14,298 nt of DNA. Source: Candidatus Jordarchaeales archaeon. GTDB lineage: Archaea > Asgardarchaeota > Jordiarchaeia > Jordiarchaeales > Freyrarchaeaceae. Positions 2,952-5,680 of the stretch are shown here, one piece after another. The number at the start of each line of letters is the position of its first letter. The stretch's first letter is position 1. A model generated the notes under the pieces. It was not told the origin of the DNA. It did no database searches and saw nothing but the letters and a program-made list of their open reading frames with translations. The translations under genes were made by a program, and so were the position numbers. The DNA lies in contig JAWCFL010000044.1 in the NCBI GenBank assembly GCA_038858525.1, forward strand, positions 1 to 14,298, read 5' to 3'.

Positions 2952-3839
2952 TTGGAGCGGATGCCCGCAGCTATAGGCTTCTACCCAGGTAACCCTGAAG
3001 AGCTAAGGCGAACAATAGCGTCCTGCTTTAAGGATAAGCATGGACCCGGAGAAGTGCCTAAGGTTAACGAGAAAGGAGCTAGAAGGGTTGTGGGCTGCGT
3101 CGCGCCTCACGCCGGCTACTACTACTCGGGCCCGGTTGCAGCCCACCTTTACAAGGCGCTGGCCGAGGACGGCAAACCGGAATGCTTTGTCATGATGGGG
3201 CCAAGCCACATGGGTTACCCTGGAGCCTCCATAATGAGGAAGGGAGTGTGGGTTCTCCCCTTCGGGAAAGCGGTGGTTGACTCTGAGCTTGCAGACGCCG
3301 TCATGAGGAACGCCGATATACTGCTGGACGAGCCGAGGGCGCATGCGAGAGAACATTCACTCGAAGTTCAGCTTCCCTTTCTCCAGTACCTTTACGGCGA
3401 GGTTCGCTTCGTGCCAATAGCCTTTGGACCAACAGATTACGAGACGTGTGTAGATGTAGGCGAGGGCGTAGCTGAGGCTACAAAGGAGCTGGGCAGGGAC
3501 GTTGTGGTCTTGGGAAGCACAGACCTAACGCATTACGGCCCAATGTATGGGTATGCGCCCGCTGGGACATCACCCATCGAAAGGGTTCTAAAGTGGATTT
3601 ATGATACTGATGGAAAAATCCTAGAAAAAATCAAGGTTATGGATTCAAGTGGGCTTTACATCCTCGTCCACGAGGAAGGCTTAACAATGTGCGGCGTGAA
3701 CGCCGTTGCAAGCATGATGGTCGCGGCGAAAAACCTCGGAGCCAAAAAAACTGAAATACTAAAATACGCTACGAGCTATGACATAAGGGGCGGGCGGGAC
3801 GCCATAGTAGGGTACCTCTCAGCGACCCTGACAAAGTAG
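2952..3839 (+). CDS. MEMO1 family protein (AmmeMemoRadiSam system protein B)
   Basis: Motifs GFYP, PHAGYYYSG, GPSH, EHSLEVQLPFLQ, STDLTHYG, MCG, YATS and VGY. GAGGA RBS upstream. Confidence 0.93.
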   Translation: MERMPAAIGFYPGNPEELRRTIASCFKDKHGPGEVPKVNEKGARRVVGCVAPHAGYYYSGPVAAHLYKALAEDGKPECFVMMGPSHMGYPGASIMRKGVWVLPFGKAVVDSELADAVMRNADILLDEPRAHAREHSLEVQLPFLQYLYGEVRFVPIAFGPTDYETCVDVGEGVAEATKELGRDVVVLGSTDLTHYGPMYGYAPAGTSPIERVLKWIYDTDGKILEKIKVMDSSGLYILVHEEGLTMCGVNAVASMMVAAKNLGAKKTEILKYATSYDIRGGRDAIVGYLSATLTK

Positions 3840-3906
3840 CATTTCCCCCAGCTCTGCGAGACGATCTGACGGCTTATTTCTGGATGAGAAGTCTCTATTC
3901 TCCACA

Positions 3907-5011
3907 CTAAAGTTTTGGGTGCTCCCCATACTTGTAATATATTCTGCATGTTCCCTCCGAGCTTACCATGCAGGGACCATAGGGCTTCTGAGGGGTGCAA
4001 GCTCTGCCGAAGAGCCTGCACTCTGGAGGGTATATTTTGCCTATCATGACGAGGTGGCAGTTGCATCCCGGGTTTATGTCCACATGCTTCATTGGGGCGA
4101 ACTCGTATTTTTTCTCGGCGTCCGCATCCTCGAACTTCTTCTTTAGGGTTAAACCTGACTGGGGGATTCTCCCTATGCCCCTCCATTCAGCGTCCGCCAC
4201 GTCGTAAACTTCGCCTATAAGCCGCTGAGCCTTAACGTTCCCCTCCTCCCTAACTACTCTACTATACTCATTTTCGCATCTGGCTTCCCCGTCGCGTAGC
4301 TGCTTTAGGAGCATGAGGACTGCTAGAAGAACATCGTTAGGTTCAAAGCCTGCCACAACAGTCGGCATCTTGTAGGCTTCTGCAAAGACCCTGAAGGCTT
4401 TGACTCCTATTATGGCTGCAACATGCCCCGGACATATGAACCCGTCTATGTGTATGTCGCCTACGCCTAAAAGAAGCTCCATGGCTGGAGGGATCAGCCT
4501 GTGATAGCACATTACACTGAAGTTCTCCGGAACCCCTCTCAGGAGCTCGCTCGCAGTGGTTGGGGCCGTGGTCTCAAAGCCAACAGAGACGAAGACCACT
4601 TCTCTTTCAGGGTTCCTGCGAGCTACTTCAACAGCGTCCGAGACACTGTAAACCACCCTAACATCTCCTCCCCTCGCCTTGGCTTCTAAAAGCGACATCC
4701 TCGTAGCTGGAACCATCATCAAGTCTCCGAACACGGTGAGAACTACTCCTTTAAGGGCGAGCTCAACAGCCCTGTCGAGCGCTACGGTTGGCGTCACACA
4801 AACAGGGCATCCGGGGCCAGCTATAACCTCAACTTCTTCGGGCAGAATGCTCCTTAGGCCAAACCGGCTTATGGTTTGTTCATGCCTCGGGGCCAGTGGC
4901 TGTCCCGCACACGTGCATAAACTTAACTTTCCGGTTTGGCCTAAGCCTTCTTATCTCTTTCGATATCTCCCTTGCAACTTCAGCGCTCCTAAAACGCTCA
5001 ACGACCTCCAA
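3907..5011 (-). CDS. hypD: Hydrogenase maturation protein HypD; predicted spliced CDS join(complement 4902..5011, 3907..4885), 362 aa
   Basis: The 3' part carries GPGCPVC, GFETT, PGHV and the C-terminal 4Fe-4S Cys cluster (GCNC...C...C...CMVSSEGTC). The 5' part, from TTG at 5011 (MEVVERFRSAEV...KFMHVCGT), is in a different frame. Removing the 16 nt at 4886..4901 joins them as MHVCGTHEQTISRFGLRS, giving 1089 nt = 363 codons. The ORF track start at 4797 truncates the gene. Confidence 0.93.
4886..4901 (-). other. Candidate 16-nt bulge-helix-bulge mRNA intron (AGCCACUGGCCCCGAG) in hypD
   Basis: Fold: UGUG/CAUG outer helix, CGGG/CCCG 4-bp central helix, 3-nt bulges ACA and AGG, and a GCC-ACU-GGC inner hairpin. 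Cutting after the second nucleotide of each bulge gives GGG ACG CAU GAA (G-T-H-E). Confidence 0.85.
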
Positions 5012-5023
5012 GCCTTCACCCGT

Positions 5024-5680
5024 CTAAGCTACCCGCCTCCCTCTTCTTATCAATTTTTCCTCCGCCAGCCTAAAGTCATTAGGCGTGTTCACATTAAAGA
5101 AAGTTTCAAGTTCAGGATCCAGTTCCCCTATGACCAGCGTCGAGACGTAGAGAGTTTTGATCCTCTCTATGAACCCCCTCATATCCCTATACCCTCTTCT
5201 TAAGGCTTCTTCGATGGCTTGCAACGCTTTGCCTGCATTATAAACGGCGACCAGAGGCTCAATGTAGCCACTTGGCCACCTTGGCACCACGGCGTCCCAC
5301 CCCTCAGCAATCTCCCTCAAGAATGATAAGACGATGGGCTTCACCAAGGGAACGTCGCAGGGTAAAAGGAGCACATATTCCTCTCTCCGATGAGAAAAAG
5401 CCGTGTAGGCGCCCACGAGGGGGGACTTGAATCCCACATCGACATCAGGTATAACTTCCACGACGCTGGCAAGTCTCTTAGCGTAATCCTTCATGTTGCT
5501 CGAGCCCGCCACCACGAACACGTCACCCGTCAGAACCCTGCACGCTTCTATGACATAGAGGATCATGGGTTTTCCTGCTAGACTCGCCAAGCCCTTCTCT
5601 ACGCCCATTCTGGAAGATGTTCCACCAGCCAGTATGGCTGCCGAGACTCGCTTACTTCCATGCGCCAAGTGCTTCCGCAT
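5024..5680 (-). CDS. mobA: Molybdenum cofactor guanylyltransferase MobA
   Basis: Motifs ILAGGTSSRMGVEK, SPLVG, PCDVP, EPLVAVY and FFNVNTP. The start overlaps the NUDIX stop region, so the exact start is uncertain. Confidence 0.88.
   Translation of the reverse strand: MRKHLAHGSKRVSAAILAGGTSSRMGVEKGLASLAGKPMILYVIEACRVLTGDVFVVAGSSNMKDYAKRLASVVEVIPDVDVGFKSPLVGAYTAFSHRREEYVLLLPCDVPLVKPIVLSFLREIAEGWDAVVPRWPSGYIEPLVAVYNAGKALQAIEEALRRGYRDMRGFIERIKTLYVSTLVIGELDPELETFFNVNTPNDFRLAEEKLIRRGRRVA

What the first reader, a model, noticed from the sequence alone, without database searches (positions are those of the whole stretch)
4881..4911. Canonical bulge-helix-bulge micro-intron interrupting the CGTHE motif of hypD
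Seen in sequence: the minus-strand mRNA reads AUG CAC GUG UGC GGG AC^AGCCACUGGCCCCGAG^G CAU GAA CAA. The 16-nt insert shifts the frame exactly between CGT and HE. It folds as outer helix UGUG/CAUG, central 4-bp helix CGGG/CCCG, two 3-nt bulges (ACA, AGG) and a GCC(ACU)GGC inner hairpin. Cleavage after the second nucleotide of each bulge releases exactly 16 nt and re-forms G-T-H-E in frame, giving a normal-length 362-aa HypD. Established knowledge: this is the substrate geometry of the archaeal tRNA splicing endonuclease (EndA), with ligation by RtcB. The well-documented protein-coding case is the short cbf5 intron of Crenarchaeota. Inference: this is an mRNA intron in a different gene, implying that EndA splices mRNAs more widely in this lineage. 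A random indel or assembly error is very unlikely to produce a BHB whose cut sites restore a conserved motif.
Basis: partly seen in the sequence, partly recalled or inferred. Interest (0 to 1): 0.95.

Follow-up and report, generated by a model that had tools for sequence, protein, structure and literature searches.

The report
tRNA-type mini-intron inside Asgard hypD
The only hydrogenase-maturation gene hypD of this Asgard archaeon (Candidatus Jordarchaeum) is interrupted by a 16-base insert shaped like a tRNA intron. Every sampled relative in its class carries an insert at the same spot, so the messenger RNA very probably has to be cut and rejoined by the tRNA-splicing enzymes, which in print is known for the coding region of only one archaeal gene (cbf5).

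Summary
On the minus strand, 16 nt (4901..4886) split the CGT|HE motif of hypD. Bases 4911..4881 can fold as a canonical helix-bulge-helix-bulge-helix. Cutting after the second base of each bulge gives a 362-aa HypD.

It is not an error or a dead gene.
- All 11 species genomes of the class (Jordarchaeum-like and Freyrarchaeum-like families), one other Asgard genome and one metagenome contig carry an insert at the same codon.
- The inserts are 16, 17, 24, 25 or 28 nt long. All keep the 4-bp central helix and both 3-nt bulges. The inner hairpins are unrelated in sequence.
- Both exons are under strong purifying selection (exon 2 dN/dS 0.03-0.06).
- The genome encodes two EndA paralogues and RtcB.
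- I verified five more such introns in four other genes of this genome: cbf5, EF-2, gatE and aIF2-gamma (two).

Column-wise covariation is weak because the core is nearly invariant.

In print, only cbf5 (Crenarchaeota) has a coding-region BHB intron. This scan had already noted similar mRNA introns in this and other archaeal genomes.

Verdict: a real, conserved EndA-type mRNA intron (about 85%), and a new member of a known kind.

The parts
4902..5011 (-). hypD exon 1: TTG start at 5011-5009, 36 codons plus the first two bases (AC) of the Thr codon of CGT|HE
   Evidence: The frame is open from the TAG of the upstream gene. Its translation aligns with the N-termini of uninterrupted HypD proteins. 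Exon 1 dN/dS is about 0.1-0.2. The start codon is inferred.
4886..4901 (-). 16-nt BHB intron (A GCC ACU GGC CCCG AG)
   Evidence: Same-site inserts of 16-28 nt occur in 13 lineage representatives.
3907..4885 (-). hypD exon 2: third base of the Thr codon, 325 codons from HE onward, and the stop at 3909-3907
   Evidence: Pfam HypD E 4e-135. dN/dS 0.03-0.06. There is no in-frame start codon before GTG 4797, which lies beyond both the CGTHE and GPGCPVC motifs.
4881..4911 (-). Complete hBHBh' motif: outer helix 4911-4908 / 4884-4881; central helix 4907-4904 / 4891-4888; bulge 1 4903-4901 (cut after 4902); inner hairpin 4900-4892; bulge 2 4887-4885 (cut after 4886)
4881..4883 (-). UGA that ends the unspliced reading frame, giving a 43-aa product ending ...CGTATGPEA

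Best explanation
hypD is transcribed with a 16-nt intron of the archaeal bulge-helix-bulge (BHB) type. In the pre-mRNA, exon bases UGUG-CGGG and CAUG pair with each other and with intron bases CCCG. This presents two 3-nt bulges four base pairs apart, stacked on a small intron hairpin.

The proposed steps are these. The heterotetrameric (alpha-beta)2 splicing endonuclease EndA cuts after the second base of each bulge. RtcB joins the exons (GGGAC|GCAUGAA). Only the spliced mRNA encodes the 362-aa HypD with its CGTHE motif; unspliced mRNA ends after 43 codons.

Shown here: the sequence, the foldable geometry, the same-site conservation with variable length, purifying selection on both exons, and the enzyme genes.

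Inferred: cleavage, ligation, and any regulatory use.
For: 1. Geometry and frame restoration are exact. Shuffled introns match the geometry in 0.096% of trials.

2. The site is interrupted in 11 of 11 species genomes of the class. It is also interrupted in another Asgard family (G016, 24 nt with an in-frame UGA) and in metagenome contig L059 (25 nt). Lengths of 16, 17, 24, 25 and 28 nt cover all three residues modulo 3. Only exact excision, not one kind of frameshift, can restore CGTHE in all of them.

3. The core is kept while the rest changes.
- The central helix is paired in 12 of 13 sequences, with wobbles CCUG and CUCG.
- L059 pairs a GGU Gly codon with GCCG, a change from G-C to U.G on both sides.
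- The inner hairpins are unrelated in sequence but always stack on the central helix: 3 bp in Jordarchaeum, 6-9 bp in Freyrarchaeum-like genomes, 7 bp in G016, 6 bp in L059.
- C-G / U-A / U.G exchanges occur at the third Jordarchaeum pair, and C-G / U-A at the second Freyrarchaeum pair.
- In the alignment, 93.4% of cells are paired, against 22-52% when the partners are slid.

4. All 12 intron-bearing genome sequences use UGC GGG for Cys-Gly. None of the 18 intron-less relatives examined does.

5. The gene is alive. It is the single copy in the genome. Exon 2 dN/dS is 0.03-0.06 with dS 0.4-2.5 inside the genus. HypC and a [NiFe]-hydrogenase large subunit are present.

6. The machinery is present: two PF01974 EndA paralogues and RtcB. 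Asgard EndA is reported as the (alpha-beta)2 type with the L1 loop linked to broad substrate range (PMC5829648).

7. The lineage is known for extreme tRNA-intron load (PMC11291895; bioRxiv 10.64898/2026.10.13.758758). The same genome has BHB inserts that restore GTLDP in cbf5, GHVDF in EF-2, the GHVDHGKT P-loop in aIF2-gamma (two introns) and the frame of gatE.

8. The insert recurs in contigs from six further samples held by JGI and Logan.
Against: - There is no RNA-level evidence.
- Among the 120 best matches listed, the 12 Jordi/Freyr-type protein clusters (67% identity or more) are 292-340 aa, so none comes from a spliced transcript.
- The fold is not more stable than shuffles (z -0.67). 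The minimum-energy fold shifts the outer helix by one register. In the closest relative it closes the 3' bulge altogether.
- The outer helix is weak: 2 Watson-Crick pairs plus wobbles or mismatches.
- Column-wise covariation is not significant against shuffles (150/500 and 104/500), because the core columns hardly vary.
- G016 has a G.A mismatch in the central helix.
Confidence: 0.85

Rival explanations
1. Translational recoding. The ribosome gets past the insert by frameshifting or by hopping (as in T4 gene 60), with no RNA cutting.
For: The insert sits between two coding frames. It contains a hairpin and is followed by a stop codon, as recoding sites often are.
Against: Insert lengths of 16, 17, 24, 25 and 28 nt would each need a different shift. 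Read-through would add 5-9 residues inside the invariant CGTHE motif. G016 has an in-frame UGA. In Jordarchaeum there are no matching take-off and landing codons (ACA versus GAG-G). What is conserved is the BHB pairing, not a slippery sequence.
Confidence: 0.04
2. A broken gene or two-piece protein. The insert is a tolerated lesion. HypD is either non-functional or is made as separate fragments.
For: Gene callers and public annotation report only 5'-truncated HypD of 292-340 aa in these lineages.
Against: dN/dS is 0.03-0.06 in exon 2 and about 0.1-0.2 in exon 1 across species with saturated synonymous sites. This is the only hypD copy, and hydrogenase and HypC are present. The first start codon of the downstream frame lies beyond both the CGTHE and GPGCPVC motifs. 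The lesion would have to persist unchanged in position across a whole class.
Confidence: 0.05
3. An assembly or sequencing artefact in this metagenome-assembled genome.
For: The genome is a 63-contig MAG. I could not map raw reads.
Against: The same-site insert appears in 11 species genomes, including a single-contig 3.6-Mb genome, and in contigs from independent samples and assemblers. The two closest species share the 16-nt length with one base different.
Confidence: 0.01
4. The RNA is excised, but by something other than EndA/RtcB, such as another nuclease and ligase pair or a guide-RNA-dependent process.
For: Nothing here identifies the enzyme. The outer helix is weak and the intron is very small.
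Against: The conserved features are exactly those EndA reads: two 3-nt bulges separated by 4 bp. Sixteen nt lies within the 11-175 nt range reported for archaeal tRNA introns (PMC2738675). The enzymes are encoded.
Confidence: 0.05

Closest known systems
cbf5 pre-mRNA intron of Crenarchaeota (Desulfurococcales, Sulfolobales; Watanabe 2002; Yokobori 2009, PMC2738675)
   Same: A short BHB-type intron inside a protein-coding sequence, placed within a catalytic or conserved motif. It is cut between the second and third bulge bases. The host has a hetero-oligomeric EndA. Presence across lineages is patchy.
   Different: The gene (hypD) and the phylum (Asgardarchaeota) differ. The intron is 16 nt. 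The motif here is nearly canonical, whereas most cbf5 introns have relaxed motifs. cbf5 splicing was confirmed by cDNA and in vitro cleavage; this one was not. This genome also has its own cbf5 intron at the same Asp codon.
Archaeal tRNA and rRNA BHB introns
   Same: The same hBHBh' geometry and cut rule, and the same presumed enzymes. The size is within the tRNA-intron range. The lineage is already known for more than 90% intron-containing tRNA genes (PMC11291895).
   Different: The substrate is an mRNA, so the exon strands of the helices are also under codon constraint (UGC GGG AC-N / CAY G). Splicing has to compete with translation.
BHB intron in the 5' UTR of Haloferax volcanii HVO_1309 (PMC7714728)
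   Same: An mRNA processed by the splicing endonuclease.
   Different: That intron is 46 nt and lies in the untranslated leader, so it does not interrupt the reading frame. It was verified by circRNA-seq and in vitro cleavage.
Eukaryotic HAC1/XBP1 unconventional mRNA splicing (IRE1 plus tRNA ligase/RtcB)
   Same: Protein-enzyme excision of a short, structure-defined mRNA intron. This changes the reading frame, and a tRNA-type ligase then rejoins the exons.
   Different: The nuclease (IRE1) and the motif (twin stem-loops) differ. That system is regulated by stress. No regulation is shown here.

Membership tests
Archaeal BHB (EndA-type) intron | Two 3-nt bulges on opposite strands separated by a 4-bp helix | tested here: met
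   CGGG/CCCG with bulges ACA and AGG in the window. The central helix is fully paired in 12 of 13 homologous sites; G016 has one G.A mismatch.
Archaeal BHB (EndA-type) intron | Flanking helices h (exon-exon) and h' (intron hairpin) | tested here: met
   The inner helix is at least 3 bp in 11 of 13 homologous sites and is interrupted by one mismatch in the other two (G005, G006). The outer helix has 2 Watson-Crick pairs next to the bulge in all 13, then a variable third position and a G.U fourth. The outer helix is weak.
Archaeal BHB (EndA-type) intron | Cutting after the second base of each bulge yields a functional joined product | tested here: met
   This restores ...CGTHE... and a full-length HypD in all 13 sequences, whatever the insert length.
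Archaeal BHB (EndA-type) intron | Host encodes the splicing endonuclease and an RtcB-type ligase | tested here: met
   Two PF01974 matches (110.7 and 80.6 bits) and RtcB (601.5 bits) in the same genome.
Archaeal BHB (EndA-type) intron | Structure maintained by compensatory change across relatives | tested here: inconclusive
   93.4% of cells are paired, against 22-52% for slid partners. Only 2 alignable pairs change on both sides, and the shuffle control is not exceeded. Support comes instead from non-alignable hairpins that differ completely yet all fold, and from GGU/GCCG in L059.
Archaeal BHB (EndA-type) intron | Excision and exon ligation observed in RNA (cDNA, circular intron, in vitro cleavage) | not testable with these tools
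HypD (PF01924) hydrogenase maturation protein | Full-length match including the N-terminal CGxH motif and GPGCPVC | tested here: met
   Exon 2 alone covers profile positions 29-351 at E 4e-135. The spliced product supplies the missing N-terminus and aligns with uninterrupted homologues.

The most novel reading that the evidence does not exclude
In Jordiarchaeia (and at least one other Asgard lineage), cutting and rejoining of messenger RNAs by the tRNA-splicing enzymes is a routine and obligatory step of gene expression. It would affect many essential genes: translation factors EF-2 and aIF2-gamma, cbf5, gatE, hypD, and others flagged by this scan.

The hypD site would be either an old intron that predates the split of the two families and perhaps of Asgard classes, or a 'proto-splice site' hit repeatedly. 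The exon sequence (CAUG...UGCGGNAC / CAUGA) already supplies half of a BHB.

This would place widespread protein-enzyme mRNA splicing in the closest prokaryotic relatives of eukaryotes.
Probability: 0.6. Interest if true: 0.88.

Novelty: new member of a known kind. Interest (0 to 1): 0.72.

Why it matters
- Printed knowledge holds one archaeal gene (cbf5, Crenarchaeota) with a BHB intron in its coding region and one 5' UTR case. A 2020 paper says so explicitly (PMC7714728).
- A second gene, in Asgard archaea, conserved across a whole class and accompanied by further cases in essential genes of the same genome, suggests that mRNA splicing by the tRNA endonuclease is a regular feature of some archaea, not a curiosity.
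- There is a practical consequence. Standard pipelines truncate these genes or call them pseudogenes: the 12 Jordi/Freyr-type HypD clusters listed from the public protein collection are 292-340 aa and lack the start of the protein through the Thr of CGTHE, and several also lack GPGCPVC. Metabolic reconstructions of Asgard archaea may therefore miss or mis-score such genes.
- It raises the question of how splicing is coordinated with coupled transcription and translation.

Tried and rejected

2. Looking for spliced transcripts through the protein collection: all 12 close clusters are 5'-truncated genomic calls and none is spliced. This gives no information either way.

3. Genome-wide automatic scan of the own genome for BHB motifs that join open frames.
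- It produced 109,462 and then 4,377 candidates.
- Counts for the true cut register did not clearly exceed those for shifted registers (for example 282 against 246-271).
- Stop-free frames and codon log-odds are too weak in this roughly 50% GC genome.
- The filter for 'no spanning ORF' even removed hypD, because of a spurious antisense ORF (4679-5203).
- No count of introns per genome can be given from it.

4. Fold energy as evidence: not significant (z -0.67).

5. Column-wise covariation statistics: not significant, because the core is invariant.

6. Single origin against several gains.
- The HypD tree places the class as one clade (100/99). G016 and L059 sit elsewhere.
- The AU test does not reject all intron-bearers forming one clade (p 0.0585). 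This is left open.

8. The metagenome scan used generic HypD peptides and returned mostly distant, uninterrupted HypD (77 of 83). It was useful as a control and for finding L059.

9. Phylum survey: only the best 150 of 371 matches were listed, so the absence of further intron-bearing lineages is not established.

Full report
**What is there**

On the minus strand the window carries hypD. A first reading frame starts at TTG 5011. It encodes 36 residues ending ...KVKFMHVCG plus the first two bases of a Thr codon, then runs through 16 extra bases into a UGA at 4883-4881. A second frame begins with HEQTISR at 4884 and runs to the stop at 3907. It matches Pfam HypD at E 4e-135 over profile positions 29-351, so only the N-terminal positions are missing.

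Deleting 4901..4886 joins the two frames into a 362-aa protein reading ...MHVCGTHEQTISR.... This aligns residue for residue with uninterrupted HypD proteins of other archaea. The downstream frame has no start codon before GTG 4797, which lies beyond both the CGTHE and GPGCPVC motifs. Exon 2 therefore cannot be translated on its own into a working HypD.

**Shape**

- outer helix UGUG/CAUG
- central 4-bp helix CGGG/CCCG
- 3-nt bulges ACA and AGG on opposite strands
- intron hairpin GCC-ACU-GGC stacked on the central helix

This is the arrangement of archaeal pre-tRNA introns. The 5' exon supplies one strand of the central helix and the 3' end of the intron supplies the other.

RNAfold recovers the central helix, the 5' bulge and the hairpin, but it shifts the outer helix by one register. 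The energy is unremarkable (z -0.67). Shuffling the 16 intron letters in place gives a 4-bp central helix plus a stacked helix of at least 3 bp in 0.096% of 200,000 trials.

One qualification: a cut one base further 3' on both sides would also give CGTHE. The protein therefore does not fix the register; only the BHB cutting rule does.

**Who has it**

The organism is an Asgard archaeon. The closest public records are 'Candidatus Jordarchaeum sp.' and 'Jordarchaeia archaeon'.
- All 11 species genomes of its class carry an insert at the same codon. They form two families: Jordarchaeum-like genomes of about 2 Mb, and a family of 3.5-3.8 Mb genomes that includes a single-contig one and is annotated in public data as Freyarchaeota.
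- The inserts are 16, 16, 17, 17 and 17 nt in the first family and 28 nt in the second.
- One genome of another Asgard family (G016) has a 24-nt insert with an in-frame UGA.
- One metagenome contig (L059) has a 25-nt insert.
- Seventy-seven of 83 other HypD loci checked are uninterrupted, including two complete genomes of another family (f13). The remaining five are contig ends or the bacterial CGGQTH form.
- Contigs from six further samples (JGI and Logan assemblies) repeat the 17- and 28-nt forms.
- The phylum survey listed only the best 150 of 371 matches, so further carriers cannot be excluded.

**Why it is an intron and not a lesion**

1. Lengths of 16, 17, 24, 25 and 28 nt cover all residues modulo 3. 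Only exact excision restores CGTHE in every case.

2. The BHB core is kept while the rest changes.
- The central helix is paired in 12 of 13 sequences, with CCUG and CUCG wobble variants.
- L059 uses a GGU Gly codon and has GCCG opposite, a change on both strands.
- The bulges are always 3 nt. The 5' bulge is ACA or ACU. The 3' bulge starts with A, and its last base (the wobble base of the Thr codon) varies freely.
- The inner hairpins of the four groups share no sequence, yet each stacks directly on the central helix. There are C-G / U-A / U.G exchanges within groups.

3. All 12 intron-bearing genome sequences use UGC GGG for Cys-Gly. None of the 18 intron-less relatives examined does. This suggests selection on synonymous sites for pairing, although the 12 represent only two or three independent lineages.

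4. Both exons are under purifying selection in their own frames. Exon 2 dN/dS is 0.03-0.06 and exon 1 about 0.1-0.2, with dS 0.4-2.5 within the genus. The gene is single-copy. HypC and a [NiFe]-hydrogenase large subunit are present.

The formal column-based count is less impressive. It shows 93.4% of cells paired, against 22-52% for slid partners. Only two pairs change on both sides and there is no excess over shuffles, because the alignable core hardly varies. I therefore rate covariation in the strict sense as inconclusive. The argument rests on length variation, non-homologous hairpins and selection.

**Machinery and context**

The genome encodes two splicing-endonuclease paralogues (open frames of 193 and 198 aa) and RtcB. 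Asgard archaea are reported to have the (alpha-beta)2 enzyme with the L1 loop that goes with broad substrate range (PMC5829648).

The two families are the most tRNA-intron-rich archaea described (PMC11291895; bioRxiv 10.64898/2026.10.13.758758). Neither paper mentions mRNA introns.

Earlier notes of this scan listed other candidate mRNA introns in this genome. I checked four genes myself:
- cbf5 has a 30-nt BHB insert (C1:177182-177211) that restores GHAGTL|DP. It lies between the first and second base of the catalytic Asp codon, the position described for the crenarchaeal cbf5 intron (PMC2738675).
- EF-2 has a 29-nt insert (C4:81118-81146) that restores TPGHV|DFTG.
- gatE has a 30-nt insert with an in-frame TAG (C2:68773-68802).
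- aIF2-gamma has two inserts 16 nt apart. Removing both restores GTAGHVDHGKTTL.

My attempt at an unbiased genome-wide count failed because the background was too high.

**Origin**

On the HypD tree the class is one clade (100/99), so one gain before the two families split is the simplest reading. G016 and L059 sit elsewhere, but the AU test does not reject a single clade of intron-bearers (p 0.0585). Ancient intron with losses, repeated gain, or transfer remain open.

The exons themselves contribute CAUG on both sides and UGCGGNAC. Uninterrupted genes therefore already hold half of the motif, which could favour repeated gain. This last point is inference.

**What is not shown**

The 12 Jordi/Freyr-type clusters listed from the public protein collection are 5'-truncated calls of 292-340 aa, and none derives from a spliced transcript. 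Enzyme identity, efficiency, and any regulatory role (such as an on/off control of hydrogenase maturation) are inference.

**Comparison and novelty**

In print, the only BHB intron inside an archaeal coding sequence is that of cbf5 in Crenarchaeota. A second mRNA case lies in a 5' UTR in Haloferax (PMC7714728; PMC2738675). Searches for bulge-helix-bulge with hypD, and with Asgard, found no report of this.

The hypD intron meets every sequence-testable criterion of the BHB family. It is therefore a new member of a known kind, in a new gene and a new phylum.

Within this scan, similar mRNA introns have already been noted on other DNA: other parts of this genome, the same hypD site in related genomes, a Baldrarchaeia genome and DPANN genomes. 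Those notes served as leads only.

**Verdict**

This is a real and conserved feature, and very probably an EndA/RtcB-spliced mRNA intron (0.85). Interest is 0.72.

Noticed in passing
G000 C1:177182-177211 (+), locus L043: cbf5 of this Asgard genome carries a 30-nt BHB insert with an in-frame TGA. Central helix CACU/GGUG, bulges AGA and AAA. It lies between the first and second base of the catalytic Asp codon (GTL|DP), the same position as the crenarchaeal cbf5 intron.
   Followed up: partly
G000 C4:81118-81146 (+), locus L050 1790-1818: EF-2 is split by a 29-nt insert. Central helix ACGU/GCGU, bulges AGA and AAA, 9-bp stem, no outer helix. Removing it restores DTPGHV|DFTGHV.
   Followed up: partly
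G000 C1:191171-191200 and 191124-191154 (-): aIF2-gamma has two BHB-type inserts (30 and 31 nt) separated by a 16-nt micro-exon inside the P-loop region. Removing both gives ...GTAGHVDHGKTTLVQAL....
   Followed up: partly
G000 C2:68773-68802 (+): gatE has a 30-nt in-frame insert with a TAG. Central helix GACG/CGUC, AAA bulges, 10-bp stem.
   Followed up: partly
window 3907-4797 and the public protein collection (P0003-P0014): Gene callers give 5'-truncated HypD (292-340 aa) in every Jordarchaeum-like and Freyrarchaeum-like record, and a separate 39-56-aa ORF for exon 1. Public annotations therefore lack the start of the protein through the Thr of CGTHE.
   Followed up: yes
window 4679-5203 (+): A 174-aa open frame lies antisense to the hypD 5' region and the intron. 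It is probably spurious, but it defeats simple filters for broken genes.
   Followed up: no
window 2952-5680; loci L134-L136: The gene order MobA-like nucleotidyltransferase - hypD - Memo-like (convergent) is kept in related metagenome contigs. hypD is not next to other hyp genes or a hydrogenase.
   Followed up: no
L059 (Ga0180302_10004193) 375-399: An unnamed metagenome lineage, on a long branch in the HypD tree, has a 25-nt insert at the same hypD codon. A GGU Gly codon pairs with GCCG. This points either to an independent gain or to an old shared intron.
   Followed up: partly
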